64,000 bases of DNA from Schmidtea polychroa (taxonomy: Eukaryota), in assembly GCA_044892525.1 (NCBI GenBank), contig CM097885.1, positions 5,148,001-5,212,000 of the forward strand, given 5' to 3'. The translations under genes were made by a program, and so were the position numbers. The notes beneath the pieces were generated by a model, which was not told the DNA's origin, ran no database searches, and was given only the letters and a program-made list of their open reading frames with translations. This document shows positions 10,689 to 42,300 of the stretch, piece by piece (positions within the stretch are counted from its first letter, which is position 1; every line of letters starts with the position of its first letter).

Positions 10689-11104
10689 TAAATGTTTTTA
10701 TAAAAATATGTTTTTATTATTTTATAATTATTATTATGTTTTATTATTATTATTATTATTATTATTATGTTTTATTATTTTTAAAAATGTTTTATATTAT
10801 TAGAATATTAAAAAATTCAGTCATGCACGGTACATGATCCGTACATGATTAATAGTAATTGTAATGGTAATAATAATAATAATAAATTATTTTGTACATT
10901 ATTCTAAGACTGACCGGATTCGCAAGTAATTAGAATAAATATTTGTTTAAAATGTCAATTTTACAGGTTTATATAAACTTATTATTTATATAAGTTCGGA
11001 AAGTTGTCTCTGAAAAATCAAAAACCAAAAATGAACAATACAATGAACAATTCCAGTAATATTTTACGTGCTCTCTTAACGAGCAGCAATTGAAATTATT
11101 AGAC

Positions 11105-11597
11105 CTGGGGTGGAGAACTTGTGGCCTTTAGGCCGCATACGGCCTACGGAGCTTTATGGAAATAAATCCTAATTTATATAAAAAACCATGAATTTTGAGT
11201 ATTTACAAATAAAAATAATTGTAACTACTGAACTCTATATATATCGTACTGTACTAGCATCCCGCCGAGTACACAGAATGAAATATAAAAGTCAATTATT
11301 CACACCCAAAAATTCAAAATGTATGTAGACAAATAAATAAGATTATTGAGCACTAATTTCTGAAATGATGACTTATTTGCTTCCACTTTTCGATTCAGAA
11401 ATAACAAACATTTTCTAGAATATTTCGTACAGCTGCATTTTTCAAATCTGGAGACTGATTATAAACATTGTTTTAATTACTAACTGTATATAAACAAAAG
11501 ATATAAAATGAAATTAAAAATATGTTAAAATACTTTTTGACTGCTGCCCCATTTCGAGGCGACAAATTTCAATGTGGCCTATGAGACACTCCATCTG
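11105..11597. mobile_element. Degenerate hAT-type MITE (mirror copy ~40918-41835, with an internal duplication)
   Basis: Starts CTGGGGTGGAGAACTTGTGGCC..GGCCGCATACGGCC and ends ATGTGGCC...CTCCATCTG; no clean TSD. Confidence 0.55.
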
Positions 11598-13989
11598 TGT
11601 AGAGTTAAGTATTCATGTAGAAGTTCTCAAATTTAAGTATAAAATGACATTGGGATAAAACGAAAACAATAAAACGATAAATAAAAATTAGCTGCCATAA
11701 GTCGATTGGATAAATTAAAGAGGGAAATGTTCAGGGGTAGGTTTAAAATTCGAATCTACATTTTCTTGATTATTGTGAATATTTTTTTAGTGTTCCAAGT
11801 AATGAAGAGTAAGTGCGCGAACAGTAACGCTGCAATCCAGAGTCAGAGACATTATTAAAATGAAATAAAATTTCATCAATTTCAATTAAATAAATATTTG
11901 AAATTTTATAAAGATTATGAATAATGTGATTGTTCCAAATCACGATTCAGAAAGGTACAGAACCTTGCGGTGAAAACCGGATCAAAGCAGTAGAAAATCT
12001 CCAATTCCACCCCAAACTCTGGAAAGATTTAACAGCGATTGATGTTCTTTATTTAATTTCGTCTTAGAAAGAAAAAAATCTTATAACTGTTGGTTACTTA
12101 GGGGTGTGTCATTTTATATTTTTAATACGTCAGGGGTAATTTAGATATTTACTCGACTCTTTCCTAAGCACCTCCATGACTATTGCACCTTAAACCATTT
12201 GTGTACCCACGGCGATGACCATGTTGATAATCTATTGCTAAAACTACTCCCCATTTTATTTTCTCTTCGGGTTCTAGACGGCCGAGAGAAGGTCTTACGT
12301 CATTAATCATTCCCTATTTATGCTTTCTACTTTTCTATTTTATTCAGCTATGGTCCTCATTTGTGGATGTTTTCTATTGTTTCTTTTCAAAATTTGGTGC
12401 ATGGATGCGCCTTTATTTTCCCTCTAATAATTATTGTTATATACTTCCTATAATATCCAAATGGTCCTTCAAAAAAATTTGAGCAGGGATTGGCCCTTAT
12501 TCACAAGTGAATAAACATGTTTCCACACTTCTCATGAAAATTTGAGCAGGGATCTGCCTGTATTTCTAATCCTGAACTATCAGATATCTTAACTATTCGT
12601 GGTTTCTACTTTGCCTACCGACAACTGGACATAACTATCCTATTATTTCTTCTAACTCGAAAATATCTATGAAAATAAGAGTGACTGAGCCGTCCTATAC
12701 TATTTAACTCTAAATAAAGCCCTAAACTATCGCAAATTGATTTTACCCTCTCCAACCGTCCATATCCCTATCTATATCCCCTACCCTGATGGACTCAACT
12801 GGCGAAACATCTGCCGACTAACAGCACGTAGTGCCGCCCGTCCACAAACCTTCCCCAGCCCAGAACATTGACACATAAATATCATGAAAAACCCAACCTA
12901 AATTATAATATTATTCAAAAAAAGGACAAAAATAGCATAAACCAAACATAAGAATTAATTAAAACAAATTCCATTAAAAATTTTATTAATTTATGGCTAA
13001 GTCTTCGGATGCTAGAGCTAATAACTCCCGCATCAAACGTTCTTTTTTTCTGAAAACTTCAGTCAGGTTTGATATCGGATAATCCTTTTTGAAGCTCCTG
13101 GCATTGGCTCATTCATATTTTATCTCATTGAGGTTGGTTATTTTCCCGGTAAGCATATTGAGCATAGAAGGGGATAAACATGGCTAAGCATAAACATGAT
13201 CAGCCATGGCCCATATAGATGCACCGGACATTCAGTCGAAGGTTAGTTCTTTCGGATTGATTAGGAGAGGCTGAGCAGTTCCAGCCTGTCTGATGAGTTT
13301 ATGCTTCCGACCGGATCCAAGTGAATTCTGAAGTAGTCCAAGCAGATCAGGACGAATTTCCCAGTTTTAGCAGATGGAGTAGTAATGGAGTTTGGAGCTT
13401 TCTTGAAAAGTTGATTTTTTTGGAGTAGGAAGACTCCATTTGTGATATTTGTAGCGTTAGTATGTTTATACATTATTATAGTATAGATTGGAAGGATTGT
13501 GTAGAGGCAGAAAATAGGGGTTAAGGTGGATATATATTAAGTATAAGAACGATTAAAAAGTTATTATCAGTTAGGCGGAGTCCCTACAAGGACTCCTACA
13601 TTGACCCACTGATAATAAATATACGCTTGATTGTATTTTTAATAGGTATAGATAGGAATAAATTAAGATAAGAATAAAAAAATAAATTAAGAGTAGTTAT
13701 AGATATTGAAGGTCAAAGTTATTAGATGACAATGTTATATTTATTAATGCAATTTAAATTATAATTATACATTTATTTATCTTTAGCTTATTTATTTAAG
13801 AATATACTAAAACCATAATGTACAATATAATTATCATATAATTACTCTTAATAATAAGTTTATACAAGTATATAATAAGGGACTTCGTAAGTCTAAGCTA
13901 AAGGAGGATTTTCTATGGATTTTATTTCTTATAATATGGATTTGCATATAATATAACCATAGTGGGCAATATAAATAAGATTGTATGCT

Positions 13990-15400
13990 TTGAGTACATA
14001 TATACTTATATAATTATTAATCATTAAGCATATGCTCTCTCAAAATATGATAGCTACTAATAACGGCAGCTGTGCACGCTTTTCGTGCCAGTCCAACTAT
14101 TTCAGATTTTGAGAGGCCTATTTTACATAGTACTTGGTTATTATTGCTATCCAAGGACTCCAGAGTACCGATAACTAGAGCAAAGATAGTTGTTTTAGTC
14201 TTATGTGCTTTACCGATGTCTATAGCCAAATTAGCATATTTGATGTAGTTATTTTTGGTAGCAATTTTAAAGTTCTCCCTTTGTTCGTATGGGACCTTTA
14301 TGTCAAGAATATGAATGTTCTTAATTCTTGGAAGATATTATAACTAGGTCTGGTTTAAGAGTCGATGTCACCACTGTGGTGACATTTCGATATCAAGATG
14401 AAAGTTTAAGTTTGAAAGGTAATCACAGACCGCTTCAAGAACCCGAGAGTGTTTATTTCTACGCGCATTAATCTTCGCGGGACAGTGGTTGAAGATTTTA
14501 CCTTTTTTACAAGAAAAATCGACTCCAAGGTGTCTGTAAAAGTTAGAGTCGTTCACCTTAGGAATATTCTCATTGTACAGTTTAATCGGGTGGTAGTTAA
14601 ATTTATCATCTAGGTGTAAATAGCCAGATTTTGAGGGTTTGAACTTTATATTGGCATGTGAGGCTAAACGGACAGTTTCAAGAAGAGCTGATGTAATTGA
14701 GGAGTACGAGTTAGAGATCAGTACAATGTCGTCGGCATATTTTTAGCCTTGTCATCGGATCTGATTTTTGGAGGATATTTAAACAAATTACTTAGATTTT
14801 GTTTTTAATTTTTTTAATTATTTTAATTTTTTAAGCTTTTTTATTTCTTGATTTTTTATTTTTAGATTTATAAAATTCCTTATTTATAAAATCATTACAG
14901 AACCATTTATTAACATGCTTTTTTTCAAAAAATGGTAAATTTTTCACGTTATTATTTTTAAAAAGGGATTTATTTTTAAAATCGTAATTTTTAATAAAAT
15001 TTTCATTACTAAGTTTTATTTTATCAAGAGTGTTTTTAAGATTATAATCGTTATAGTTTGATTTTAAAATTTTCTTTAAAATTAACATTTTTCTTAAAAA
15101 AAGCATGTTTTTCTACAGAATCATTATTCATAAAAGTATGGGAATAATCATCATTAAAGTAATTTTGATTATAATTTACGTTTGATTGCCATATTTTTAT
15201 AGCTGCTTCGAATGCATTTAGGAAGTCTATATGCTGCTCTCGGACCAAGTTTTCAATGATAAAACATCCAGAGATAAGATTGTCAGCATATCTATATGTA
15301 TTTTGGCTTATATCTCGAATATTGGAGCCAATACAATCCCAGCATGCATTTCGGAGATCCTTCGACATTTCAATGGTTCCTGAAAAATAGTTAAAAAGCT
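13990..15400 (-). mobile_element. RLE-clade (R2/NeSL-like) non-LTR retrotransposon remnant, internally deleted
   Basis: RT YADDIVLIS (~14715-14740), HC..ARRNKHSRV zinc-knuckle/RH block, endonuclease STLKPDLV..ILDIKVPYE, C-terminal LVIGTL..KIGL..ARKAC. Confidence 0.85.
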
Positions 15401-15845
15401 GAAAAGCAATAAAAAACTCATTGATTTAAATAAATTTTATTTAATAAAAGCCTGACTCCGAAGAGACAGGTTGGTCCTTTTTACGGGACGAGTTTCGAAT
15501 ATCGATCTTATTATGAATTCTATTATCAAACCATTTCTATCAATTCCTCTTGCACAATTAAATCAATAACTATACAATAGTTCCCTAAGAAAATATGAGA
15601 AATCCAAACCGTGAAAATGGATTGTGGTACACAGTGAACCGTGACCATAAATTGTTATTATTTCCATAGATAATTAATTTGAATTTATCAACTCATCACT
15701 ATTAATGATTTATAAAATCAATTTATAAGCACATTTTATTGATTGGCTTATTAAATATAAATAAGGGAAACATTTCAGCACAAAAATGGTGTGCTGCTGA
15801 TACATATGCTGACAAAATCTATGTTCAATTTAGCACTGTTGCAGC

Positions 15846-15880
15846 TTGGTGCTGGTGCTGGTGCTGGTGCTGGTGCTGGT
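15846..15880 (+). repeat. (GGTGCT)n microsatellite, shorter in the right arm (38020-38035)
   Basis: Direct observation. Confidence 0.9.
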
Positions 15881-16213
15881 AATTCGAAGAATTCACAAAG
15901 ATATCACTTGCTTATCATTATCTGATCCCGAAATTTATCTTAAGAAAAAAGGTTGGAAACTCTTAAGAGAAAACTTAAAGCGTGTTTTGTAAAAAATGCT
16001 TTATAATGATGGCACCTTTGATTTATGTCAGTACTGATTTCCCTAACATATAGGTGAAATTCTGATGTAATGAGCCCAATAATTATGCCAATTGTTATCA
16101 ATGTGAAATGTCCATGGATATAGTAAACATGATATAACCCTAAATTTCTCACATTGGCTCTGAGTTCTTGATCTTGCGTTTTGAACAAAAACCCGATACT
16201 AATTGATCTGATC

Positions 16214-17432
16214 TTATGCACTAATTGCTTCTTCAGCTCCAGTTGAAAAAACTCCGCACAATAAAGTCATACTACGTTTAAGTTCTGGTTTGCCAATTTT
16301 CTCCCACAAATTCTTGCTCATGACTGTTACTAATGCTCCAGAATCCAATAACATCTCATAAATCCCATAACACATGTCATCCCATGAAAAGGGATACTGT
16401 GTAACCAGGAAAGAACTGCTCGCCGTACATGAATACGTCATGCATTTTAGAGAATATCTGTACGGGAAAAAATTTATAATTCGCATCGACCACAAGGCAT
16501 TGGTTTTCATGAACACTACAAAAACCCCAATCAGTCCGCAGTTCCAAACATGGTTAGCTAACCTGTCGGAATATGATTTTGAACCAAAAAATCGGAAAGG
16601 CGAAGAACACTCGAATGCAGATGGACTATCAACATTAAAAAGTATTGTTTGCACCCAGTGTCAAACAAGACATGAAGATGCTAAGGAAGGAAAATCAAAG
16701 ATTAGATACATATACTATCCAAAGAACAGAAGCTATGGAAAAAGTATGGGAACAACAACAAAAGGACATTCGGTTTCGAGAGCTGCGAGAGATATTGGAA
16801 AATGGATGAACACGGGAGAAAAAGAATTGATTTACTTTTAACGTAAAAAATACACAAATTGATGGAGGATTAATAACAGTAGAAAAGAACAAAAATATCT
16901 TAATGTTAGTCCCAGAAACATTTGCAGGCCTGTTAACAACAACGCTACATGAAGAACTATAAGAGATCTTATTACAGCAACATTGGCAGGCGGATGTGAA
17001 GAGAGAAACTGGCACAGACTTCTACCCAGAATAGAGTTCACTATAAATAGCAGTCGACAAAGTGCTACAGGTTTATCACCATTTGAGATAATTTATGGAC
17101 GGAGTGTTAACCTACACTCTAACGTGAAACAAGCCGAGATATCAAGAAGCGAAAGAATGGAAGACGCGAGATTTAACTCGAGTAAAACCGCAGACACTAT
17201 GAGAGCTATGGATAAGACAAAGAGGGGCACTCGTGTTTTCGAGGTGGGGGAGGAGGTACTCGTATGTAAAGACCCGCAGAACGGGCACAAGGATGGTATG
17301 CAATACTATGGTCCATATAAAATCGCCAGATTTCTAATACCTCATCGAGTCGAAATATATTCACAAGAAGGAACGAAAGAAAGAAGAATCGAGTGGCTGA
17401 AGAAGTGGGAAAAATCTTAAGAAGGGCAGAGT
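16214..17432 (+). mobile_element. Gypsy LTR retrotransposon remnant: RNase H-integrase on +, inverted protease fragment on -
   Basis: YCVTRKELLAV..YLYGKKFIIRIDHKAL..GEEHSNADGLS (RH); INSSRQSATGLSPFEIIYG, YYGPYKI (GPY/F); purine tract AAGAAGGGCAGAG at ~17419; LLDSGA protease on - at 16214-16370. Confidence 0.92.
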
Positions 17433-17688
17433 TAGATATCTTTTTGTTTAAATAATTTGGAATTGGCGGTTTTTGTGAATTAATTAAAAACTTGTTATTT
17501 ATAAATTCTTTGATTAAATATATATATTGTTAGTTTCAAGATTTTTGTTGCGAAATTTAAAGATGGATTTAACTATATTATACCTGAAAATTAATAAAAT
17601 GTATTATTTATTTATTTTTTTAAATTGACTATAAAAGTAGTTGTTTAAATAAATTATATTATTTTACAATTTAAAATTTAAATTCAAA

Positions 17689-19634
17689 ATGGCATTTTAC
17701 AATGGATCATTTCAACCAAAATACTCAAAATATCTGGAAGTAGATAAAGATTCAATAAATAACATTTTTAAAGAACTTTATAATGGATCCAAAACTTTGA
17801 AGCGTCTGTATTGAACAATATGTATTATTTATTTTTTTTAAATTGACTATAAAAGTAGTTGTTTAAATAAATTATATTATTTTAGAATTTAAAATTTAAA
17901 TTCAAAATGGCCATTTTTAAACCATCATTTAAACCAAAATACTCAAAATACCTGGAAATAGATAAAGATTCAATAAATAACATTTTTAAAGAACTTTCTA
18001 ATGGATCCAAAACTTTGAAGCGTCTGTATTGAACAATATCAAAGAAAGATATTTAGATAAATTAATTTATGTAAGTGATTTTATCAAAGTAATTGCATAT
18101 AGTTATTATTTAGACATATTCTGGTTTATCTTGTCTTGCATTAAACCCATTACATTATATTACTATCATATAAAGACCAATTTCATTTAGCTCATGCCAC
18201 TTAAAGGATAAAAAAATATATTCGAAAAAGAAGTCAATGACTTAATTACAAAAATTAAAGATCTGGAAGAGGAAGGGGAAACATTTCGCATGGTAAAAGT
18301 GACAGTAAATGCAAATTTCTATCATTTCCTGATGGTATTTTAAATGATTTTTTAACCACCATGCAGAGATCAAAAAACATTAGGAACAGTATGGAAAGAA
18401 AATTAGAATTGAAGTATGACAAAGAAATTGAAAAGCTAAAAATGCAAAGTTTACAACTAAAAACTGAGAAATCCGGACTCGAGAATGAGCTGGACATTTT
18501 GGAGCTTCAAAAATTAAACGCAGAAAATGCTGTAAGTTGTTATTATTTTGTCAGTTTCTATTATTTTCTGATGGTATTTCAATTGATTTTTTAACCACCA
18601 GGCGGAGATCAAAAACATTAGGAACAGTATTAAAAGAAAATTAGAATTGAAGTATATAATTTGAATAAATGAAGAAACAACTGGAGCAAGATGTAAAAAT
18701 AATGGAAGAAGAAAATTATATGAATGAGATTTTAATAGATAGATTTAAGGTAAATTTCTATACAAATTAAATTAAATAAATGATTTTTTAATCACTAGGA
18801 TGAGAAAACAGGTGTATTAGTTGCTGCCACCAGCCTCGGGTGGGCAACTGCGCTATTGATCACATGCCATTGATCAAAAAATTTAATCACGCAAAAGTGC
18901 ATTGTCCACGCCAGGACTGCACCAAAACTGTACGTGCCTCAGGGCTGGAGAGGCACCCTGTGCCTGTCCCGCAAAGGGAGCATACCCCGACAGAGGAACA
19001 AGTAGTCATTGTCCAGCCAGAGGAGACGAATGACCCGACAGTAGCACCAGGTGGTAATCAAGCGGCGCTTCAAGCTATACAACAAATGAGAAACGAAATG
19101 AATGACAGGCTGGATGCAATGGAGCAACAAATAAATGGCATTGCGGCTGCCCAAAACGAAATGGCAGCTGCCCAACAAGAAATAATTGGCAGGCTTGATG
19201 CTGTTGAGACGAGGGTCGGTGCGCTGGAGCATCCCCAGTAGGCCCTCAGCCAATAAGGTATTTAATAATTATTATTATTATTTAAAGCAATAAAGTGAAA
19301 CATTCAACAAAAATTGCAAAATCAAATAGAAACAAAGTATTTGAAGGAATTTGAAGAAAAACAAATTCAATACACAAAACTTGAATCTCAACTAATATTA
19401 ACACAGAATGAGAATTCAAAAATACAAAATGCTGTAAGTTATTTTGTGATTTTATTGTTTTTTCTTATATTTTATTTTTATTCAATTTTTTTACAGCTAA
19501 AAAATTCGATGCAAAAAGCAGAAGATTTTCAATTACAACTGCACGCAAAAGATCTTGCAATAGAGGAACGGGAACATAAAATTGAATGTTTAACAGATAA
19601 GTTAAATAGCCAAACAAGTCAGCAAACGAGGTGA
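17689..19634 (+). pseudogene. Multi-exon coiled-coil gene remnant with internal tandem duplications
   Basis: Short GT-AG introns between E/K/Q-rich exons (18361-18531, 19314-19433, 19497-19630); ~198-bp duplication at 17610-18040; stops present. Confidence 0.5.
18820..19241 (+). CDS. GC-rich ORF fragment: TRAF-type zinc-finger-like motif plus coiled coil
   Basis: AKVHCPRQDCTKTVRASGLERH followed by heptad-rich AALQAIQQMRNEMNDRLDAMEQQI...LDAVETRVGALE; clear GC step from the flanks. Confidence 0.5.
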
Positions 19635-19878
19635 GTAAAATTTAGTTAAAATTTATTTAATAGGTTAAAAAATTAGATAAATAAGAGGTAGATAAAAAAT
19701 AAAAAGATAAGATATAGGTAGATAAATAAAAAGTTTATAAATAAATATCTAAAATATCAAAATAAATAAAATAATGAGGCTCGGTAAGTAGTATTTGGTA
19801 TGATTGCCACTACCTGTATCGTAAAAAAACTTATCGTAATATGGGAATTATATCGTGAAAATTCTGTATCGTAAGAAG

Positions 19879-20929
19879 TGTTAGGGATAGGCCTGGAGCC
19901 TTAGTGACAAAATAAATAAAAAATTACTATAATTAGTAATACCATAAATAAAAATAATAAAGTGTTACCGAAAATAAAAGATAAGTTTTTTTAATTACTA
20001 TTAATAGAATTAAGTAATATATAGGAATATTTGTGAATACTATTACTATATATAGTAATTATATAAGTACTATTAATATATTAAATAAGTAAAAAATAAT
20101 ATAACTACCGTTTCAAAACCAAAACGAGAGAGAGAAAAATTGGAGACGATAATCTTGAGGACGATAAAAACTGTGATTGAAAGTTAAATTAACGAATAGA
20201 TTGGAGAGAATAATAACCAGAAAAGTAGTTAATTGATCCATCGAAGAAACGTGATTAAAGAATCACCGAGATAAATTAATTCCAAGAATTTGACCACAAT
20301 CGCAAGGTTTCGGATCAAATTTGAATATTTTAGTCTCACAAGGCGAAATTCCGGCTCAAATTACGAATTAATTATCGCAGAAACTTTTCTATAAATTACG
20401 GACGAGAATTGACCAGAGGAAAAGGAAAACTTGAAAGAGAAATTGAAACAGATTAGTGACAACAGAAGGAGCAGTTAAATTCAGGCAAGGTAAAAGATTT
20501 AATTAATTGTGTTGGGTAAGGATAAATTATTATCCTTGGGAAGGGAATTAAATAAAGCGAACACAAAGTACAGATAGCGACTTTCGTGTTACCTGGTAGC
20601 CCCAAAATCAACCCTCTTGCTTTTCCACTATCTTTCTAGTTTATTTAGCGATCGTTGTGCTACACAGGAGCCATCGATTTCTTGCAGGCTGTTGGTAAAC
20701 AGTAAGGATTAATAAATCCGTTTACTTGTACTCTTTGAACATATTTTATAAATATCTGTTGTAAATTATTAAATACATTTTTATAAAAGAGAAAGGCGTT
20801 TGTTGTTAATTCAGTGATACGCAACCACATTAAATAACTTATTTATATTTATTTTTATTTATTTATCTTAATTAAGTTATTGGAGTCTTTTGTGTTAAGA
20901 TCTGTAGTCCCCGTTTTTCGATCTTAACA
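19879..20929. mobile_element. Solo LTR (1051 bp) with 4-bp TSD GAAG
   Basis: GAAG|TGTTAGGG...GATCTTAACA|GAAG; TGTTA/TAACA termini. Confidence 0.88.
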
Positions 20930-21154
20930 GAAGCAATGTTAATTAATATCGTAATTTAATTTCTTCTTCTATATTGTAACAAGAAATATGGAGACAAAAA
21001 AACATTCATGTAACTCAAAGTAACAGTATTTTGATATATTAATAAAGACCATATAGTCTGAGTTTATCCGGCTAAATATTCTGTCCCCCTATGGGTATTG
21101 CTAGCAAGGGTACTGGTCACATTCAACATGTCGCAAGGGTATATTAATCAATTA

Positions 21155-22560: not shown

Positions 22561-22775
22561 AAAATAACGAAATCTCTTGTATATATATATTATGAATAAT
22601 AATGGTAACAATACCTTTGACGTTTAACTTGCACTCGGTGGCACTCGATATTCATTAAACTCACATTACACTGTTGCTCTTTCATTTTATTTGGGTACAC
22701 ATCTATGTGCTGTGTCCTCTCATCAATTATTAGGATCTCACCAATGAATGATCATCACAAGTTATCAATCATAAT

Positions 22776-22915
<140 letters not shown>

Positions 22916-23161
22916 AGTCAAGTACAAGCCAAGCTTTGAGTAACAGTGGCAGCTTTTTTTCAAGCCAATCAGTTACAATTCCAGCCAGTAGTTCTGCATC
23001 CTCAGATTCATCTTTATCTACTTCCCATTCAATCTCAGAACCAATTATGGCGGACATTCAATTGGTAATAATAGTTATATATACATTTCTTAATTATAAT
23101 AATTAATTTAATAATAATAATAAATAAAATAATAATTAATTAAATATAAATTAAATAAATA

Positions 23162-29669: not shown

Positions 29670-29884
29670 ATTATGATTGATAACTTGTGATGATCATTCA
29701 TTGGTGAGATCCTAATAATTGATGAGAGGACACAGCACATAGATGTGTACCCAAATAAAATGAAAGAGCAACAGTGTAATGTGAGTTTAATGAATATCGA
29801 GTGCCACCGAGTGCAAGTTAAACGTCAAAGGTATTGTTACCATTATTATTCATAATATATATATACAAGAGATTTCGTTATTTT

Positions 29885-32345
29885 TTGCGCATTAATATGT
29901 GTCCTTTTTATATAATTGAAGATGTCCAGGAGTACTCCACTCTCCATCCATTTCTTCCACTGTCTGATAGGGATGTTATCTTCTCCTGGTGCCGAATCAT
30001 TCCCGGATATCTGGAATTTCTTTTATGAAATAAGCATCTAAGATGCTTTTGGGAAGGTCCGCTGGGGCTGACTCGTTTTTATATATTTCCTTTATTGCTC
30101 TTTTTGGAGCTATAGCAAATAATCTTTGTATTTGATATGAGCATTTGGAGATGTTGATCTTTCCACCTCTTTTGTTCTTTTGTTTAGGGATTGATTCATT
30201 ATATTTGTTCGTGAACCATTGAAGTACCGAATCTATGTCTATCTGTAGTAACTTCAATTTGAGAATTAATTCGTCTATTTCTTTATTTGACTTCTTTGGT
30301 GTATTCTTCTTGGTATCTTTCAATTCTTCCATAATTTGCTTCCCAATTATGTTTCTAATTTTGATTGAGTCTGGGGTCTGATAATTCAGTCGTTCAGGTT
30401 TATTCACAAAGTCCTCAATGAATTGTAGGACGTATGTTCCACAATCATAGTCATTTGATTGTTGAGGAATTAGTCTGTTTTCTATTGATTTAAAGATAGT
30501 TCTTTCTTCCACTGTATTTTCCAGGAATTTATCTAGTCTGTCTTTTATATTACACTTTTGCAATGGTGTCATTTGATTGTCAGAGTCCAGGATAATAGAG
30601 GTTTTATCCTCATAGTTAGCCAGGTAAACAATCCAATGGCAGTTGTTCCAGTGAATAAGCCAGACTATTAGTTCCCATCCAATCAGGGAGTCTATCTTGA
30701 TTTCATTATGAAATGTTCTCAAATTTCGATTGATCAGCAAATTTGCCAGTCTTGGTTCAATGTATTTGATGTTTTTATTTATTGATTCGTTTTGTTCCAG
30801 GAGAATTTTGATGTAAGTCTCCATTGCAGCCAGTGATGGTCAGCTGTTCTGTGATGGAATGTCACTGTGGTCTATTGTTGTTGATCCAATTCGTTTGTTT
30901 TTAATATCACGATCTGTGTGGATTTTTGCATGATTTTGGCATTCATTTCCTTTGAATGGTTTTTCACATTGTACACACTTGATCATTGGCTGGGATTTAT
31001 CTTTTAATACATCCTTATTTTTTAATCCATTTTTATGCTTATTTATCATATGGTTCCAAGCATCATCGTATTTTTTGGTCTTATATACGTCTTTTTCTTT
31101 ACAGTGGTTACATTCAATATTATACTCATTATTCAGAGTAAAGTCGAAGTCTGGTATTGGCACATCTGGGTCTGTTGGTGCGCCTCCTCCTTTCATTTTC
31201 AATTTGTTTCTCTGAGTTGATGGAGATTGTGTTTGTCTCCTTTTACTACTTGATAGTTCTTCATTAGATGATATGGTTCTATTTCTTTTCGATAATTTTG
31301 TGTTTTTGTCTATTTTTGGCTCCTTAAAGATACCATACACTGCTGTAGTATTATCTTCAGCAATAATTCCCTTTGGGGTATGACTTTTTTCTATAATTTC
31401 TTTTACAGTTTCTGTTGGAGATACTTCTATAGTTTCAGGGATAATCTCACTCTGTATGCTGCTTTCTGTTTCTATCAATACAACGGACTCTTTTTCCTTG
31501 GGTTCATTGGGTATTGATTGTTTTTCTCCGAACAGAGTTATGCATTTCTGAAACTTGAATTGGCGACTTATTCCAACCGTTGTCCTTTGGAAAAAGAATT
31601 GGAAAAAATTCGCAACTAAAGTTTGCTCTTCTTGATCCTTTTATTAATCTGTTTATCTTCAGGTTGTCTTTTTCGCTAACACTCTGGTTTTTCGTCCTAG
31701 GCTTGAGATTTGTTAACCAGCTTTCCGGTACCGTGAAATATTTAGCAAAATTTGACATGTCAAATTTTGATTCTTTGAATTCATTCATGTTATCTTTAAT
31801 GTACCTGCTTACAATGTTGTAAGTTATAAGCAAGGCATCATTGTTCTTGAAATTATATTTGTGAGTAGCCAGTAGAAATTGTTTCACCTCCACAAAGGTT
31901 TCATTCGATATATTCATTTTCACATAATTCTCGAAGTTGCTCTTCAGGAAAATTTTTCTTTTTGATTTGTATTTTTTGGGTTTGAATGTATTGACATCGA
32001 CCGTCTCATTGTTGTCATTGTTGTCAGTCCATTCAATTGGATTTCTTTTAATATTTTTATAATTTTTCGATTTTGGCTTTGATTTGGTTTTTTCAATTTT
32101 TTCCTCTTTATGATTTAAGATTGGGAATTCCTTTTCAAGTGTTTCATTGTCTAGAATTGAAAGAGCATTGTAGCGATTTGGTGGAGTAACCATTTTTTGG
32201 AGATGTTCAGTGTCAGAGATATCATCCAGGTCAACATTCTGATTGTTCTGCGAAGCAGAACGAGTCTTCACGGAGGGCCCCGAAGAATGGCTACTCAAAA
32301 CGGTTTTTATTGTTAACTTTGAAAGAGACTGCTGGTAAATGTTTG
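29885..32345 (-). mobile_element. NeSL/LIN-type non-LTR retrotransposon 5' portion (fuller copy): N-terminal region, 2 CCHH fingers, Ulp1 protease
   Basis: Consecutive ORFs 31504-32298, 30840-31478 and 29997-30824 form one ORF broken by stops/frameshift; contains the PNRYNALS motif; no RT. Confidence 0.88.
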
Positions 32346-32956
32346 AATAACAACAACAAGAAGCAAGTTATAACAGAGAAAACAAAAAAACCCGCATTAT
32401 AAAACATACTTAACATTCAAAGTTGCTAACGCCCTAAATAATGATAATTATAAAGCATTTTCATTCGAATTATCAAAAAAAAATTGGAATACCAAAGGGG
32501 GACCGTACCTGTATCGTAATATGACTTCTTACCTATATCGTAAAGATAGAAATGGACCAATATCGTAAAAGTTAAAAATGGACCTATATCGTAATCCAGG
32601 TTTAATCTGTATATTATAAAATAGAGATAGAGATAATTTATTTTTCAAACATTCAATAATTTAAATGACAGGTTTAATGATAAAGTCAATTTTTTCACCA
32701 CAAGATGGACAAACAGGGATGTCTGAATTTCTAACTGATTAATATACCCTTGCGACATGTTGAATGTGACCAGTACCCTTGCTAGCAATACCCATAGGGG
32801 GACAGAATATTTAGCCGGATAAACTCAGACTATATGGTCTTTATTAATATATCAAAATACTGTTACTTTGAGTTACATGAATGTTTTTTTGTCTCCATAT
32901 TTCTTGTTACAATATAGAAGAAGAAATTAAATTACGATATTAATTAACATTGCTTC

Positions 32957-34020
32957 TGTTAAGATCGAAAAACGGGGACTACAGATCTTAACACAAAAGA
33001 CTCCAATAACTTAATTAAGATAAATAAATAAAAATAAATATAAATAAGTTATTTAATGTGGTTGCGTATATGAGTTTTAAATCACTGAATTAACAACAAA
33101 CGCCTTTCTCTTTTATAAAAATGTATTTAATAATTTACAACAGATATTTATAAAATATGTTCAAAGAGTACAAGTAAACGGATTTATTAATCCTTACTGT
33201 TTACCAACAGCCTGCAAGAAATCGATGGCTCCTGTGTAGCACAACGATCGCTAAATAAAGTAGAAAGATAGTGGAAAAGCAAGAGGGTTGATTTTGGGGC
33301 TACCAGGTAACACGAAAGTCGCTATCTGTACTTTGTGTTCGCTTTATTTAATTCCCTTCCCAAGGATAATAATTTATCCTTACCCAACACAATTAATTAA
33401 ATCTTTTACCTTGCCTGAATTTAACTGCTCCTTCTGTTGTCACTAATCTGTTTCAATTTCTCTTTCAAGTTTTCCTTTTCCTCTGGTCAATTCTTGTCCG
33501 TAATTTATAGAAAAGTTTCTGCGATAATTAATTCGTAATTTGAGCCGGAATTTCGCCTTGTGAGACTAAAATATTTAAATTTGATCCGAAACCTTGCGAT
33601 TGTGGTCAAATTCTTGGAATTAATTTATCTAGGTGATTCTTTAATCACGTTTCTTCGATGGATCAATTAACTACTTTTCTGGTTATTATTCTCTCCAATC
33701 TATTCGTTAATTTAACTTTCAATCACAGTTTTTATCGTCCTCAAGATTATCGTCTCCAATTTTTCTCTCTCTCGTTTTGGTTTTGAAACGGTAGTTATAT
33801 TATTTTTTACTTATTTAATATATTAATAGTACTTATATAATTACTATATATAGTAATAGTATTCACAAATATTCCTATATATTACTTAATATTATTAATA
33901 GTAATTAAAAAAACTTATCTTTTATTTTCGGTAACACTTTATTATTTTTATTTATGGTATTACTAATTATAGTAATTTTTTATTTATTTTGTCACTAAGG
34001 CTCCAGGCCTATCCCTAACA
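32957..34020. mobile_element. Solo LTR, mirror copy, TSD CTTC
   Basis: CTTC|TGTTAAGATC...CCCTAACA|CTTC; 13 bp longer than the left copy. Confidence 0.88.
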
Positions 34021-36466
34021 CTTCTTACGATACAGAATTTTCACGATATAATTCCCATATTACGATAAGTTTTTTTACGATACAGGTAGTGGCAATCATA
34101 CCAAATACTACTTACCGAGCCTCATTATTTTATTTATTTTGATATTTTAGATATTTATTTATAAACTTTTTATTTATCTACCTATATCTTATCTTTTTAT
34201 TTTTTATCTACCTCTTATTTATCTAATTTTTTAACCTATTAAATAAATTTTAACTAAATTTTACTCACCTCGTTTGCTGACTTGTTTGGCTATTTAACTT
34301 ATCTGTTAAACATTCAATTTTATGTTCCCGTTCCTCTATTGCAAGATCTTTTGCGTGCAGTTGTAATTGAAAATCTTCTGCTTTTTGCATCGAATTTTTT
34401 AGCTGTAAAAAAATTGAATAAAAATAAAATATAAGAAAAAACAATAAAATCACAAAATAACTTACAGCATTTTGTATTTTTGAATTCTCATTCTGTGTTA
34501 ATATTAGTTGAGATTCAAGTTTTGTGTATTGAATTTGTTTTTCTTCAAATTCCTTCAAATACTTTGTTTCTATTTGATTTTGCAATTTTTGTTGAATGTT
34601 TCACTTTATTGCTTTAAATAATAATAATAATTATTAAATACCTTATTGGCTGAGGGCCTACTGGGGATGCTCCAGCGCACCGACCCTCGTCTCAACAGCA
34701 TCAAGCCTGCCAATTATTTCTTGTTGGGCAGCTGCCATTTCGTTTTGGGCAGCCGCAATGCCATTTATTTGTTGCTCCATTGCATCCAGCCTGTCATTCA
34801 TTTCGTTTCTCATTTGTTGTATAGCTTGAAGCGCCGCTTGATTACCACCTGGTGCTACTGTCGGGTCATTCGTCTCCTCTGGCTGGACAATGACTACTTG
34901 TTCCTCTGTCGGGGTATGCTCCCTTTGCGGGACAGGCACAGGGTGCCTCTCCAGCCCTGAGGCACGTACAGTTTTGGTGCAGTCCTGGCGTGGACAATGC
35001 ACTTTTGCGTGATTAAATTTTTTGATCAATGGCATGTGATCAATAGCGCAGTTGCCCACCCGAGGCTGGTGGCAGCAACTAATACACCTGTTTTCTCATC
35101 CTAGTGATTAAAAAATCATTTATTTAATTTAATTTGTATAGAAATTTACCTTAAATCTATCTATTAAAATCTCATTCATATAATTTTCTTCTTCCATTAT
35201 TTTTACATCTTGCTCCAGTTGTTTCTTCATTTATTCAAATTATATACTTCAATTCTAATTTTCTTTTAATACTGTTCCTAATGTTTTTGATCTCCGCCTG
35301 GTGGTTAAAAAATCAATTGAAATACCATCAGAAAATAATAGAAACTGACAAAATAATAACAACTTACAGCATTTTCTGCGTTTAATTTTTGAAGCTCCAA
35401 AATGTCCAGCTCATTCTCGAGTCCGGATTTCTCAGTTTTTAGTTGTAAACTTTGCATTTTTAGCTTTTCAATTTCTTTGTCATACTTCAATTCTAATTTT
35501 CTTTTCATACTGTTCCTAATGTTTTTTGATCTCTGCATGGTGGTTAAAAAATCATTTAAAATACCATCAGGAAATGATAGAAATTTGCATTTACTGTCAC
35601 TTTTACCATGCGAAATGTTTCCCCTTCCTCTTCCAGATCTTTTATTTTTGTTGTTAACTTATTGACTTCTTTTTCGAATATAATTTTTTATCCTTTAAGT
35701 GGCATGAGCTAAATGAAATTGGTCTTTATATGATAGTAATATAATGTAATGGGTTTAATGCAAGACAAGATAAACCAGAATATGTCTAAATAATAACTAT
35801 ATGCAATTACTTTGATAAAATCACTTACATAAATTAATTTATCTAAATATCTTTCTTTGATATTGTTCAATACAGACGCTTCAAAGTTTTGGATCCATTA
35901 GAAAGTTCTTTAAAAATGTTATTTATTGAATCTTTATCTATTTCCAGGTATTTTGAGTATTTTGGTTTAAATGATGGTTTAAAAATGGCCATTTTGAATT
36001 TAAATTTTAAATTCTAAAATAATATAATTTATTTAAACAACTACTTTTATAGTCAATTTAAAAAAAATAAATAATACATATTGTTCAATACAGACGCTTC
36101 AATGTTTTGGATCCATTATAAAGTTCTTTAAAAATGTTATTTATTGAATCTTTATCTACTTCCAGGTATTTTGAGTATTTTGGTTTAAATGATGGTTTAA
36201 AAATGGCCATTTTGAATTTAAATTTTAAATTGTAAAATAATATAATTTATTTAAACAACTACTTTTATAGTCAATTTAAAAAAATAAATAAATAATACAT
36301 TTTATTAATTTTCAGGTATAATATAGTTAAATCCATCTTTAAATTTCGCAGCAAAAATCTTGAAACTAGCAATATATATATTTAATCAAAGAATTTATAA
36401 ATAACAAGTTTTTAAATAATTCACAAAAACCGCCAATTCCAAATTATTTAAACAAAAAGATATCTA

Positions 36467-37685
36467 ACTCTGCCCTTCTTAAGATTTTTCCCACTTCTTC
36501 AGCCACTCGATTCTTCTTTCTTTCGTTCCTTCTTGTGAATATATTTCGACTCGATGAGGTATTAGAAATCTGGCGATTTTATATGGACCATAGTATTGCA
36601 TACCATCCTTGTGCCCGTTCTGCGGGTCTTTACATACGAGTACCTCCTCCCCCACCTCGAAAACACGAGTGCCCCTCTTTGTCTTATCCATAGCTCTCAT
36701 AGTTTCTGCGGTTTTACTCGAGTTAAATCTCGCGTCTTCCATTCTTTCGCTTCTTGATATCTCGGCTTGTTTCACGTTAGAGTGTAGGTTAACACTCCGT
36801 CCATAAATTATCTCAAATGGTGATAAACCTGTAGCACTTTGTCGACTGCTATTTATAGTGAACTCTATTCTGGGTAGAAGTCTGTGCCAGTTTCTCTCTT
36901 CACATCCGCCTGCCAATGTTGCTGTAATAAGATCTCTTATAGTTCTTCATGTAGCGTTGTTGTTAACAGGCCTGCAAATGTTTCTGGGACTAACATTAAG
37001 ATATTTTTGTTCTTTTCTACTGTTATTAATCCTCCATCAATTTGTGTATTTTTTACGTTAAAATTAAATCAATTCTTTTTCTCCCGTGTTCATCCATTTT
37101 CCAATATCTCTCGCAGCTCTCGAAACCGAATGTCCTTTTGTTGTTGTTCCCATACTTTTTCCATAGCTTCTGTTCTTTGGATAGTATATGTATCTAATCT
37201 TTGATTTTCCTTCCTTAGCATCTTCATGTCTTGTTTGACACTGGGTGCAAACAATACTTTTTAATGTTGATAGTCCATCTGCATTCGAGTGTTCTTCGCC
37301 TTTCCGATTTTTTGGTTCAAAATCATATTCCGACAGGTTAGCTAACCATGTTTGGAACTGCGGACTGATTGGGGTTTTTGTAGTGTTCATGAAAACCAAT
37401 GCCTTGTGGTCGATGCGAATTATAAATTTTTTCCCGTACAGATATTCTCTAAAATGCATGACGTATTCATGTACGGCGAGCAGTTCTTTCCTGGTTACAC
37501 AGTATCCCTTTTCATGGGATGACATGTGTTATGGGATTTATGAGATGTTATTGGATTCTGGAGCATTAGTAACAGTCATGAGCAAGAATTTGTGGGAGAA
37601 AATTGGCAAACCAGAACTTAAACGTAGTATGACTTTATTGTGCGGAGTTTTTTCAACTGGAGCTGAAGAAGCAATTAGTGCATAA
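36467..37685 (-). mobile_element. Gypsy remnant, mirror copy
   Basis: ORFs 37064-37525 and 36479-36916 mirror 16374-17420. Confidence 0.92.
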
Positions 37686-38489
37686 GATCAGATCAATTAG
37701 TATCGGGTTTTTTGTTCAAAACGCAAGATCAAGAACTCAGAGCCAATGTGAGAAATTTAGGGTTATATCATGTTTACTATATCCATGGACATTTCACATT
37801 GATAGCAATTGGCATAATTATTGGGCTCATTACATCAGAATTTCACCTATATGTTAGGGAAATCAGTACTGACATAAATCAAAGGTGCCATCATTATAAA
37901 GCATTTTTTACAAAACACGCTTTAAGTTTTCTCTTAAGAGTTTCCAACCTTTTTTCTTAAGATAAATTTCGGGATCAGATAATGATAAGCAAGTGATATC
38001 TTTGTGAATTCTTCGAATTACCAGCACCAGCACCAAGCTGCAACAGTGCTAAATTGAACATAGATTTTGTCAGCATATGTATCAGCAGCACACCATTTTT
38101 GTGCTGAAATGTTTCCCTTATTTATATTTAATAAGCCAATCAATAAAATGTGCTTATAAATTGATTTTATAAATCATTAATAGTGATGAGTTGATAAATT
38201 CAAATTAATTATCTATGGAAATAATAACAATTTATGGTCACGGTTCACTGTGTACCACAATCCATTTTCACGGTTTGGATTTCTCATATTTTCTTAGGGA
38301 ACTATTGTATAGTTATTGATTTAATTGTGCAAGAGGAATTGATAGAAATGGTTTGATAATAGAATTCATAATAAGATCGATATTCGAAACTCGTCCCGTA
38401 AAAAGGACCAACCTGTCTCTTCGGAGTCAGGCTTTTATTAAATAAAATTTATTTAAATCAATGAGTTTTTTATTGCTTTTCAGCTTTTT

Positions 38490-39312
38490 AACTATTTTTC
38501 AGGAACCATTGAAATGTCGAAGGATCTCCGAAATGCATGCTGGGATTGTATTGGCTCCAATATTCGAGATATAAGCCAAAATACATATAGATATGCTGAC
38601 AATCTTATCTCTGGATGTTTTATCATTGAAAACTTGGTCCGAGAGCAGCATATAGACTTCCTAAATGCATTCGAAGCAGCTATAAAAATATGGCAATCAA
38701 ACGTAAATTATAATCAAAATTACTTTAATGATGATTATTCCCATACTTTTATGAATAATGATTCTGTAGAAAAACATGCTTTTTTTAAGAAAAATGTTAA
38801 TTTTAAAGAAAATTTTAAAATCAAACTATAACGATTATAATCTTAAAAACACTCTTGATAAAATAAAACTTAGTAATGAAAATTTTATTAAAAATTACGA
38901 TTTTAAAAATAAATCCCTTTTTAAAAATAATAACGTGAAAAATTTACCATTTTTTGAAAAAAAGCATGTTAATAAATGGTTCTGTAATGATTTTATAAAT
39001 AAGGAATTTTATAAATCTAAAAATAAAAAATCAAGAAATAAAAAAGCTTAAAAAATTAAAATAATTAAAAAAATTAAAAACAAAATCTAAGTAAATTGTT
39101 TAAATATCCTACAAAAATCAGATCCGATGACAAGGCTAAAAATATGCCGACGACATTGTACTGATCTCTAACTCGTACTCCTCAATTACATCTGCTCTTC
39201 TTGAAACTGTCCGTTTAGCCTCACATGCCAATCTAAAGTTCAAACCCTCAAAATCTGGCTATTTACACCTAGATGATAAATTTAACTACCACCCGATTAA
39301 ACTGTACAATGA
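38490..39312 (+). mobile_element. RLE non-LTR remnant, mirror copy lacking the endonuclease part
   Basis: YADDIVLIS at ~39143; deletion junction at ~39312. Confidence 0.8.
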
Positions 39313-42300
39313 TCATGTTTATGCTTAGCCATGTTTATCCCCTTCTATGCTCAATGATGCTTACCGGGAAAATAACCAACCTCAATGAGATAAAATATGA
39401 ATGAGCCAATGCCAGGAGCTTCAAAAAGGATTATCCGATATCAAACCTGACTGAAGTTTTCAGAAAAAAAGAACGTTTGATGCGGGAGTTATTAGCTCTA
39501 GCATCCGAAGACTTAGCCATAAATTAATAAAATTTTTAATGGAATTTGTTTTAATTAATTCTTATGTTTGGTTTATGCTATTTTTGTCCTTTTTTTGAAT
39601 AATATTATAATTTAGGTTGGGTTTTTCATGATATTTATGTGTCAATGTTCTGGGCTGGGGAAGGTTTGTGGACGGGCGGCACTACGTGCTGTTAGTCGGC
39701 AGATGTTTCGCCAGTTGAGTCCATCAGGGTAGGGGATATAGATAGGGATATGGACGGTTGGAGAGGGTAAAATCAATTTGCGATAGTTTAGGGCTTTATT
39801 TAGAGTTAAATAGTATAGGACGGCTCAGTCACTCTTATTTTCATAGATATTTTCGAGTTAGAAGAAATAATAGGATAGTTATGTCCAGTTGTCGGTAGGC
39901 AAAGTAGGTTTAGGCAATCTTATAGAAACCACGAATAGTTAAGATATCCGATAGTTCAGGATTAGAAATACAGGCAGATCCCTGCTCAAATTTTCATGAG
40001 AAGTGTGGAAACATGTTTATTCACTTGTGAATAAGGGCCAATCCCTGCTCAAATTTTTTTGAAGGACCATTTGGATATTATAGGAAGTATATAACAATAA
40101 TTATTAAAGGGAAAATAAAGGCGCATCCATGCACCAAATTTTGAAAAGAAACAATAGAAAACATCCACAAATGAGGACCATAGAAAAGTAGAAAGCATAA
40201 ATAGGGAATGATTAATGACGTAAGACCTTCTCTCGGCCGTCTAGAACCCGAAGAGAAAATAAAATGGGGAGTAGTTTTAGCAATAGATTATCAACATGGT
40301 CATCGCCGTGGGTACACAAATGGTTTAAGGTGCAATAGTCATGGAGGTGCTTAGGAAAGAGTCGAGTAAATAACTAAATTACCCCTGACGTATTAAAAAT
40401 ATAAAATGACACACCCCTAAGTAACCAACAGTTATAAGATTTTTTTCTTTCTAAGACGAAATTAAATAAAGAACATCAATCGCTGTTAAATCTTTCCAGA
40501 GTTTGGGGTGGAATTGGAGATTTTCTACTGCTTTGATCCGGTTTTCACCGCAAGGTTCTGTACCTTTCTGAATCGTGATTTGGAACAATCACATTATTCA
40601 TAATCTTTATAAAATTTCAAATATTTATTTAATTGAAATTGATGAAATTTTATTTCATTTTAATAATGTCTCTGACTCTGGATTGCAGCGTTACTGTTCG
40701 CGCACTTACTCTTCATTACTTGGAACACTAAAAAAATATTCACAATAATCAAGAAAATGTAGATTCGAATTTTAAACCTACCCCTGAACATTTCCCTCTT
40801 TAATTTATCCAATCGACTTATGGCAGCTAATTTTTATTTATCGTTTTATTTTCGTTTTATCCCAATGTCATTTTATACTTAAATTTGAGAACTTCTACAT
40901 GAATACTTAACTCTACACAGATGGAGTGTCTCATAGGCCACATTGAAATTTGTCGCCTCGAAATGGGGCAGCAGTCAAAAAGTATTTTAACATATTTTTA
41001 ATTTCATTTTATATCTTTTGTTTATATACAGTTAGTAATTAAAACAATGTTTATAATCGGTATAAATAGGGAATGATTAATGACGTAAGACCTTCTCTCG
41101 GCCGTCTAGAACCCGAAGAGAAAATAAAATGGGGAGTAGTTTTAGCAATAGATTATCAACATGGTCATCGCCGTGGGTACACAAATGGTTTAAGGTGCAA
41201 TAGTCATGGAGGTGCTTAGGAAAGAGTCGAGTAAATATCTAAATTACCCATGACGTATTAAAAATATAAAATGACACACCCCTAAGTAACCAACAGTTAT
41301 AAGATTTTTTTCTTTCTAAGACGAAATTAAATAAAGAACATCAATCGCTGGTAAATCTTTCCAGAGTTTGGGGTTTGTCGCCTCGAAATGGGGCAGCAGT
41401 CAAAAAGTATTTTAACATATTTTTAATTTCATTTTATATCTTTTGTTTATATACAGTTAGTAATTAAAACAATGTTTATAATCGGTCTCCAGATTTGAAA
41501 AATGCAGCTGTACGAAATATTCTAGAAAATGTTTGTTATTTCTGAATCGAAAAGTGGAAGCAAATAAGTCATCATTTCAGAAATTAGTGCTCAATAATCT
41601 TATTTATTTGTCTACATACATTTTGAATTTTTGGGTGTGAATAATTGACTTTTATATTTCATTCTGTGTACTCGGCGGGATGCTAGTACAGTACGATATA
41701 TATAGAGTTCAGTAGTTACAATTATTTTTATTTGTAAATACTCAAAATTCATGGTTTTTTATATAAATTAGGATTTATTTCCATAAAGCTCCGTAGGCCG
41801 TATGCGGCCTAAAGGCCACAAGTTCTCCACCCCAGGTCTAATAATTTCAATGACATGAATTTATCACATTTTATCGAAAAAAACTCACTCGTCCTCGTGC
41901 GTTAACTGATGTTAACTCTCGTACATAAAAATTTAAAGTTAAAATTAATATAAACATCAAATATATCCACATCTCTTACCTCTTTCAAAATCTTTTGACG
42001 AAAGGCCAAGTAGAAATTATTTAATATCGAAATAAAATAAATTTCATTTAATAACGAATTTGTAATTGGAAACCTTCTGACACCAGAAAAGTTTCTAATA
42101 GAGTGCTTGGAAGAACTAAACCGCTGTTTCCCAAAATAGGACGTAAGGTCCTAAGGAGACCTTGAAAAAATTTGAGAGGTTTTTAATTTTTTTTGAGAAC
42201 AAAAAGACCTTTTAATTTATATTTAACATATTGCTTTTCAAAATAAAAAATAATATTATTCAATTTTAAATTTATAAGACAGGGTGCATTACTATTGTTG

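What the first reader, a model, noticed from the sequence alone, without database searches (positions are those of the whole stretch)
11089..41851. ~30.8-kb near-perfect palindrome with ~14-kb arms and a ~2-kb spacer
Seen: the arms match nearly base for base (identical mirror ORFs), yet each has private SNPs, microsatellite lengths and kb-scale indels. There is no TSD at the outer ends. Known: long inverted repeats arise by fold-back/break-induced repair or alternative transposition and are usually unstable. Inference: a recent real inverted duplication; two haplotypes joined by the assembler is the alternative.
Basis: partly seen in the sequence, partly recalled or inferred. Interest (0 to 1): 0.75.

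Follow-up and report, generated by a model that had tools for sequence, protein, structure and literature searches.

The report
Fold-back inverted duplication of transposon debris
A 15.6-kb stretch of mostly dead transposon pieces in an AT-rich animal genome sits here twice, as 99%-identical mirror images around a 2-kb middle; public sequence data suggest it is a real duplication carried on one chromosome copy, likely left by a DNA break that folded back on itself, which is a known kind of accident.

Summary
The palindrome is there as described: arms 11089-25254 and 27223-41851, about 99% identical, spacer 1,968 bp, no target-site duplication. Each arm lost its own ~1.4-kb piece, so the original unit was 15.6 kb. 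It holds mostly decayed transposons.

Contigs of 4 public runs were laid on the spacer and inner right arm. The left inner junction is bridged in 4 of 4 and is ancestral. The right inner junction cuts a high-copy element 655 bp from its end. It was not seen bridged, but contigs break exactly at its two branch points in 2 of 4 runs. In those two runs the arm is about twice as deep as the spacer core, and a ~4%-diverged third version lies at spacer depth. Neither arm carries that version, which argues against two joined haplotypes. The outer junctions were not tested with reads.

Best reading: a real, probably heterozygous fold-back inverted duplication with an adjacent deletion (0.7). Direct hAT transposition and a Maverick-type palindromic element fail their junction tests. 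The scan noted similar duplications before in two other genomes. Known kind, modest interest.

The parts
11089..25254 (+). Left arm (14,166 bp); likely the original copy at its inner end
   Evidence: inner junction bridged in 4 of 4 laid runs
27223..41851 (-). Right arm (14,629 bp), inverted copy
25255..27222 (.). Spacer, 1,968 bp, not duplicated; core 25893-26492 at about half of arm depth or less
26574..27228 (+). Left end of a high-copy hAT-like element, cut off by the right inner junction; in run X1 the family contig is 2,837 bp long and runs on past 27228
   Evidence: terminus motif (hAT label recalled); depth and contig X1 record 1
27226..27228 (.). Right inner junction (new): 3-bp exact inverted microhomology, 5 of 6 bases allowing one mismatch
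   Evidence: contig ends at 27228 and starts at 27226 in X5 and X6
24412..24889 (+). Mosaic in both arms (mirror about 27588-28065): four snippets copied in direct orientation and scrambled order from the spacer region (25731-25806, 27205-27228 plus 44 lost bases, 25867-25922, 25623-25739)
   Evidence: joint 27228 to 27854 in X1
13203..14569 (-). Left-only 1,367 bp: endonuclease end and 3' tail of a NeSL/LIN-like non-LTR element; deleted from the right arm with 3-bp microhomology
   Evidence: RVT_1 C-terminal match E 4e-4, below cut-off; endonuclease label by eye
31298..32731 (-). Right-only 1,434 bp: 5' part of the NeSL/LIN-like reading frame; deleted from the left arm
   Evidence: frame runs through this block in the right arm
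29997..32367 (-). 5' half of the NeSL/LIN-like element (zinc finger, Ulp1 protease), broken by a frameshift and a stop; mirror remnant 21156-22590
   Evidence: Peptidase_C48 E 7e-15
41062..41486 (+). Right-only 425 bp: 313-bp copy of 40197-40509 plus a 113-bp direct repeat of 40949-41061; 0-1 bp junction homology
11105..11150 (+). hAT-like terminus 16 bp inside the outer arm end, preceded by an 8-bp nnnTAnnn site; mirror at 41835
   Evidence: Buster target consensus from PMC3517528 passages; terminus label recalled
16214..17420 (.). Scrambled LTR-retrotransposon remnant (protease-like piece on minus, RNase H and integrase-like piece on plus), in both arms
   Evidence: RT_RNaseH E 8e-16; aspartyl protease E 0.008, below cut-off
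17593..18039 (+). 218-bp tandem pair in both arms; a 9-substitution tract in the right arm's outer unit matches the neighbouring unit (local conversion)
18804..19241 (+). 145-codon frame, zinc-finger plus coiled-coil look; possible TRAF/RING gene fragment, lead only
   Evidence: atlas feature score 0.85, under the tool's 0.9 mark; only 1 hit, a repetitive 4,853-aa protein
4270..11088 (.). Left flank, outside the finding: decayed Maverick/Polinton-like gene set (ATPase-, integrase-, adenain-like frames, all broken or partial)
   Evidence: read by eye; Peptidase_C5 E 8e-4, below cut-off
43982..44380 (+). Right flank, outside the finding: host monothiol glutaredoxin (Grx5) frame

Best explanation
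The two arms are 99%-identical mirror copies of a 15.6-kb unit of transposon debris, likely a real duplication on one chromosome copy made when a broken DNA end folded back and copied the sequence upstream of it. Steps: (1) Shown: the left arm runs into the spacer in all four laid runs, so that join is old. (2) Shown: the right inner junction cuts a high-copy element whose family sequence runs on for about 2.3 kb more. (3) Inferred: a break in or beyond that element was resected, and the 3' end paired through 3-6 bases with the inverted site 1.97 kb upstream; this loop is the spacer. (4) Inferred: copying ran back for at least 15.6 kb and was rejoined to unrelated DNA. One of the two outer junctions is new, and which one is not known. 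The rest of the element was lost. (5) Shown in the sequence: the arms then diverged, each losing a ~1.4-kb piece at short homologies. (6) Inferred from contig depth: samples X5 and X6 carry the duplication on one haplotype and a single ~4%-diverged copy on the other. No function is proposed; it is most likely neutral.
For: Left inner junction: contig 25222-25347 in X5 and X6 (33 bases of arm, 93 of spacer); opposite-strand joints in X7 and X1. Right inner junction: in 2 of 4 runs (X5, X6) contigs end exactly at 27228 and start exactly at 27226, the two branch points this junction needs. X1's 2,837-bp contig aligns for its last 542 bases and runs on into the sequence kept at 24623-24666. Depth of zero-difference contigs, arm 28873-29232 (X7: 28676-29232) against spacer core 25893-26492: 49.7/21.6 (X5), 46.1/22 (X6), 806/205.6 (X7). 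At 28808, window-type against diverged type: 47.9/27.9 (X5), 53.3/23.7 (X6), 89.6/64.7 (X1), 806/0 (X7). Both arms are identical over 495 bp there. Spacer size and microhomology lie inside the published range for human fold-back junctions: 766-70,466 bp, median 3,428, and 2-8 bp (PMC3907307, passages). No N in the window.
Against: No contig bridging the right inner junction was shown (0 of 4 runs, among 32 listed of 1,142 pieces). In X7 and X1 contigs pass both branch points unbroken, so the junction is absent or was pruned there, although X7 has the highest arm/spacer ratio. The tool states that summed contig depth is no copy number. At 27381 both arms have A, but T dominates in 4 of 4 runs (X5 83.5 of 110.1), which does not fit two A-bearing arms in those samples. 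X1's 1.4:1 ratio fits neither 1:1 nor 2:1. No listed piece spans the spacer. A 3-bp TAA match is cheap in 70% AT DNA. Human fold-back cases end in a telomere, ring or translocation; here the nature of the outer join is unknown.
Confidence: 0.7

Rival explanations
1. Real duplication, but started by hAT transposase: a cut at or near an element end gave the break, and repair, not strand transfer, made the junctions.
For: The outer arm end lies 16 bp outside a hAT-like terminus, and the new inner junction lies 655 bp inside another hAT-like element. With about 8 such termini in about 49 kb of non-duplicated window, a junction this close is roughly a 0.3-1% event (hand estimate, after the fact). 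Alternative transposition with re-replication makes inverted duplications in maize (10.1101/2020.01.07.897926, passages).
Against: No junction is at a terminus. The 16 flanking bases are mirrored, not directly repeated, and there is no 8-bp TSD, which names as diagnostic. The termini were found by recalled motifs only. No transposase gene was found in the arms among the frames scanned.
Confidence: 0.1
2. Assembly artefact: two haplotypes, or two loci, joined through the high-copy element at the right end of the spacer, or the outer arms phased from different haplotypes.
For: The right inner junction was never seen bridged. The spacer's last 655 bp are a high-copy repeat. 0.38% substitutions plus kb-scale indels would suit alleles. 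The outer junctions are untested.
Against: Neither arm carries the diverged version at 5 of 5 sites checked. Arm depth is at least twice spacer-core depth in 3 of 3 runs. The model needs two different outer flanks and an extra hemizygous paralogue. F1 and F2 show no similarity. No gap in the window.
Confidence: 0.14
3. A derivative of the giant palindromic Maverick/Polinton elements noted elsewhere in this genome, copied back by the element's strand-displacing polymerase and carrying host debris as cargo.
For: The left outer end abuts a decayed Maverick-like gene set. Earlier unchecked notes list several mirror-arm Maverick elements in this genome.
Against: No TSD. The arm ends do not look like Maverick termini (recalled motif). 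Arm depth is only about 2-4 times spacer depth, not hundreds. No look-alike in the scan's notes for 3 of 3 look-ups. The ancestral inner junction shows the arm was ordinary chromosome.
Confidence: 0.04
4. Amplification or library chimera (fold-back read).
For: Whole-genome amplification is known to make false palindromes (PMC6218980, search listing and abstract start only).
Against: A chimera copies one molecule, so its arms would not differ by two independent 1.4-kb deletions. The branch points recur in two independent samples.
Confidence: 0.02

Closest known systems
Fold-back inverted duplications with a single-copy spacer (Hermetz et al. 2014, PMC3907307; passages read)
   Same: Inverted arms around a non-duplicated spacer of about 2 kb, short inverted microhomology at the new inner junction, lost sequence next to the spacer.
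   Different: Those are de novo, mostly megabase, terminal events in patients. This one is 15.6 kb, interstitial, and has persisted long enough for the arms to diverge. Its outer join is uncharacterised.
ODIRA and template-switch inverted CNVs (PMC10766186; passages read)
   Same: Template switch at short inverted repeats; spacers widened to 1.1-34.9 kb by secondary deletion. The many local templated copies here fit repeated switching.
   Different: ODIRA gives an inverted triplication with two palindromic junctions. Only one fold-back junction and two copies are seen in the window.
Ac/Ds sister-chromatid (alternative) transposition with composite insertions (10.1101/2020.01.07.897926; passages read)
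   Same: Inverted duplication with hAT-like ends close to the breakpoints.
   Different: No junction at a terminus and no 8-bp TSD.
NeSL / R5 / LIN non-LTR elements (PMC4640811; passages read), as cargo only
   Same: Zinc finger, Ulp1-like protease, RT and restriction-like endonuclease pieces.
   Different: Here split in two, in opposite orientations, with most of RT missing. Clade not tested by a tree.

Membership tests
Fold-back inverted duplication | Non-duplicated spacer of about 0.8-70 kb between inverted copies | tested here: met
   1,968 bp; core depth 2.1-3.9 times below arm depth in 3 of 3 runs covering both
Fold-back inverted duplication | One inner junction ancestral, the other new | tested here: met
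   Left junction in 4 of 4 runs; the right junction truncates an element that runs on in X1. The new junction itself is inferred from branch points in 2 of 4 runs.
Fold-back inverted duplication | Inverted microhomology of 2-8 bp at the new inner junction | tested here: inconclusive
   3 bp exact, 5 of 6 with one mismatch; in range but weak in AT-rich DNA
Fold-back inverted duplication | Deletion distal to the spacer | tested here: inconclusive
   About 2.3 kb of the cut element is missing if this copy was full length; its continuation is not at 41852 or mirrored at 11088
Fold-back inverted duplication | Both arms on one molecule; dicentric intermediate resolved by telomere, ring or translocation | not testable with these tools
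   Only short-read contigs were served; no whole genome held
Alternative (sister-chromatid) hAT transposition | New junction exactly at a transposon terminus | tested here: not met
   16 bp outside one terminus, 655 bp inside another element
Alternative (sister-chromatid) hAT transposition | 8-bp target-site duplication | tested here: not met
   Best direct match 4 bp; the 8-mer beside the terminus is mirrored
Palindromic Maverick/Polinton passenger element | Maverick termini with a 6-bp TSD (feature recalled and from unchecked notes) | tested here: not met
   No TSD; ends unlike the recalled terminus
Palindromic Maverick/Polinton passenger element | Many dispersed copies | tested here: not met
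Haplotype mis-join (assembly artefact) | The two arms are the two alleles, at spacer-equal depth | tested here: not met
   Inner 2 kb only: the diverged version is in neither arm at 5 of 5 sites; arm depth at least twice spacer core

The most novel reading that the evidence does not exclude
The palindrome is a standing, polymorphic 'killer' locus: a hAT-triggered fold-back that is tolerated in this animal and transcribed into a long hairpin RNA against the NeSL-like, LTR and hAT families it captured. It would be one of many host-DNA palindromes in a genome where fold-back copying, also seen in its Maverick elements, is routine and long palindromes are unusually stable.
Probability: 0.07. Interest if true: 0.6.

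Novelty: new member of a known kind. Interest (0 to 1): 0.3.

Why it matters
As it stands it is a well-preserved natural example of a fold-back duplication that survived and appears to segregate between samples, with its history readable in the sequence: an old join, a new join, and independent later deletions. It carries no intact host gene that I could find, so its effect is probably small. It would matter more if such palindromes proved common in this genome. That would give a direct test of how long palindromes with 2-kb spacers persist and whether their arms convert each other. It would also matter if it makes silencing RNA. I found no report of such palindromes in planarians in the searches I ran ('palindrom' occurs 0 times in the main text of PMC11410931 and PMC13309565; supplements not searched). 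The organism's identity is itself only inferred.

Tried and rejected
No whole genome is held for this window, so copy number of the arm ends and the pre-duplication allele could not be looked up.

Which outer junction is new: I translated both flanks into the arm. Both give an open frame across the junction, so this does not decide it. A search of viral contigs with the flanking protease gave 7 loci at 27% identity, too distant to show what follows it.

Staggered-break inversion and zero-loss insertion models: both predict that the cut element's continuation lies at 41852 or mirrored at 11088; it lies at neither.

Naming the organism: Grx5 has one 94%-identical unnamed relative and otherwise 53-68% animal-type matches among 108 hits. 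Two further protein searches found nothing. 'Planarian-like' rests on 70% AT, short introns and NeSL/LIN-like elements, and is a guess.

Bins without cover in X1 (25485-25889, 27645-27779) and X6 (28050-28184) are not taken as evidence. Joints with only 20-38 letters on one side (for example 26155 to 26314) may come from other repeats and were not used.

The lack of arm differences over the innermost ~730 bp is not significant at this divergence (hand estimate, 2-3 expected).
Full report
OBSERVATION. The palindrome is in the sequence at the stated coordinates. Self-BLAST gives four inverted blocks of 97.8-99.8% identity from 11089-25254 to 41851-27223. The arms are 14,166 and 14,629 bp, the spacer 1,968 bp, the whole 30,763 bp. 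The window has 24,900 inverted 20-mers against at most 3 in 5 of 5 shuffles, and no N. Piecewise alignment reported 59 substitutions; 11 lay at segment edges outside the homology and were dropped, leaving 48 over 12,799 bases (0.38%), in 31 clusters. One cluster of 9 is a tract where the right arm's outer 218-bp unit matches its tandem neighbour, that is, local conversion and not nine mutations. No direct repeat longer than 4 bp lies within 20 bp of the outer ends.

CONTENT. The DNA is from an AT-rich (30% GC) animal: a Grx5 frame at 43982-44380 has 108 hits, mostly animal where named, and an intron-split Rab1-like gene lies at about 48860-51880 (by eye). The arms hold transposon debris. There are two halves of a NeSL/LIN-like non-LTR element (Peptidase_C48 E 7e-15; RVT_1 positions 152-201 only, below cut-off; domain layout as in PMC4640811, passages), a scrambled LTR remnant (RT_RNaseH E 8e-16), a hAT-like end, and coiled-coil exon-like pieces with a possible TRAF/RING fragment (lead only). 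I found no intact host gene among the frames scanned (29 frames, chosen from the 53 of 100 codons or more and covering one copy of each mirrored pair).

THE PRIVATE BLOCKS ARE DELETIONS. The left-only block 13203-14569 continues the RT/endonuclease frame that is cut in the right arm, with 3 bp shared at the join. The right-only block 31298-32731 is the front of the reading frame that continues into the shared part. So each arm lost about 1.4 kb after the duplication, and the unit was 15,600 bp. The 425-bp right-only block (313-bp copy plus 113-bp direct repeat) could be a gain on the right or a loss on the left by recombination between the 113-bp repeats; the variants do not decide it.

PUBLIC DATA. 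Eight runs hold part of 17900-27400; four were laid as contigs on 25215-29260. (a) The left inner junction is bridged in 4 of 4: directly by contig 25222-25347 in X5 and X6, and as opposite-strand joints in X7 and X1. X1 is the most diverged sample, so this join is old. (b) The spacer's right end, 26574-27228, is a high-copy element (depth 1,603 in X1, about ten times the arm depth of about 150 there). X1's 2,837-bp contig aligns for 542 bases and then goes on into sequence that the window keeps only as a snippet at 24623-24666 and its mirror. The right inner junction therefore cuts this element and is the new join. (c) No contig across that join was listed (32 of 1,142 pieces shown). In X5 and X6, contigs end at 27228 and begin at 27226, exactly where a short junction contig would branch off. 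In X7 and X1 contigs pass both points. (d) Zero-difference contigs give arm to spacer-core depth of 2.3 (X5), 2.1 (X6) and 3.9 (X7); X1 has no long contig on the core. (e) X5, X6 and X1 hold a version of 28778-28902 with 5-6 differences at depth 27.9, 23.7 and 64.7, against 47.9, 53.3 and 89.6 for the window type; X7 shows none. Both arms carry the window type at 5 of 5 sites checked and are identical over 495 bp there. The simplest fit for X5 and X6 is two arm copies on one haplotype and one diverged copy on the other.

RESULTS AGAINST. The tool warns that contig depth is no copy number. X7 has the highest ratio yet no branch. At 27381 the window has A in both arms while T dominates in all four runs; this needs a mutation plus arm-to-arm conversion in the assembled lineage, or homogenisation by the assembler, or contig pruning, and I cannot tell which.

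MECHANISM. [quoted passage not shown] Human fold-back duplications have spacers of 766-70,466 bp (median 3,428) and 2-8 bp of inverted microhomology (PMC3907307, passages). I infer a break in or beyond the element, resection, fold-back priming 1.97 kb upstream, copying of at least 15.6 kb, and a second join to other DNA. Models without loss fail, because the element's continuation is at neither outer junction. Either outer junction could be the new one; flank translations do not decide. The locus was already rearrangement-prone. Both arms share a mosaic at 24412-24889 of four snippets from the spacer region in scrambled order, one of which straddles the later breakpoint. The two NeSL halves face opposite ways with their broken ends placed as an older ~8-9 kb inversion would leave them (inference, they could be two copies).

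RIVALS. A hAT-like terminus starts 16 bp inside the outer end, after an 8-bp site that fits the Buster consensus (PMC3517528, passages). That closeness is unexplained and unlikely by chance on a rough count. But the flanking bases are mirrored, and there is no TSD, which alternative transposition requires (10.1101/2020.01.07.897926, passages). A transposase-made break followed by repair stays possible. Earlier notes describe giant palindromic Maverick elements in this genome (unchecked) and a decayed Maverick-like gene set abuts the left end, but this structure has no TSD, low copy number and an ancestral chromosomal inner join. A haplotype mis-join fails on the inner arm but is not excluded for the outer parts.

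COMPARISON AND NOVELTY. It works like, and on the features I could test belongs with, fold-back inverted duplications with a single-copy spacer. The scan reported two similar cases in other genomes (unchecked). Literature searches for planarian palindromes found nothing relevant (0 occurrences in the main texts of PMC11410931 and PMC13309565; supplements not searched). Papers not named above were seen only as listings and abstract starts.

VERDICT. Observation confirmed; real duplication about 0.84 in all, fold-back repair 0.7; new member of a known kind; interest 0.3.

Noticed in passing
   Followed up: partly
window 24412-24889 and mirror 27588-28065: Mosaic of four snippets (56-123 bp) from the spacer region in scrambled order; one straddles the position where the new inner junction later fell.
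   Followed up: partly
window 14745 and 22590 (both arms): The 3' and 5' halves of a NeSL/LIN-like element face opposite ways, as if one copy was split by an older inversion with loss of most of the RT domain.
   Followed up: partly
window 11089-11105 and 41835-41851: The outer arm end lies only 16 bp outside a hAT-like terminus; unexplained.
   Followed up: partly
window 27381 (mirror 25096): Both arms have A where T dominates in all four laid runs; possible arm-to-arm conversion or assembly homogenisation.
   Followed up: no
window 9056-9244 and 56258-56364: A 189-bp palindromic insert (94%) interrupts the integrase-like frame; a related piece lies at 56.3 kb. Looks like a small foldback element.
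   Followed up: no
window 57012-57386 / 58187-58564 and 61086-61272 / 62203-62387: Two older inverted repeats (82% and 88%); the second flanks a degenerate frame that looks like a Penelope-type RT/GIY-YIG remnant (by eye).
   Followed up: no
window 43982-44380: The Grx5 frame has no start codon in its open stretch and begins about 20 residues into its 94%-identical relative P0001; possible upstream exon, frameshift or processed copy.
   Followed up: no
window 42400-43665: Degenerate pogo/Tigger-like DNA transposon (DDE_1, E 2e-21) in the right flank.
   Followed up: no
window 50459-50775 and 47637-47702: Short hAT-like MITEs; the first has a near-perfect 8-bp direct repeat with a central TA.
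   Followed up: no
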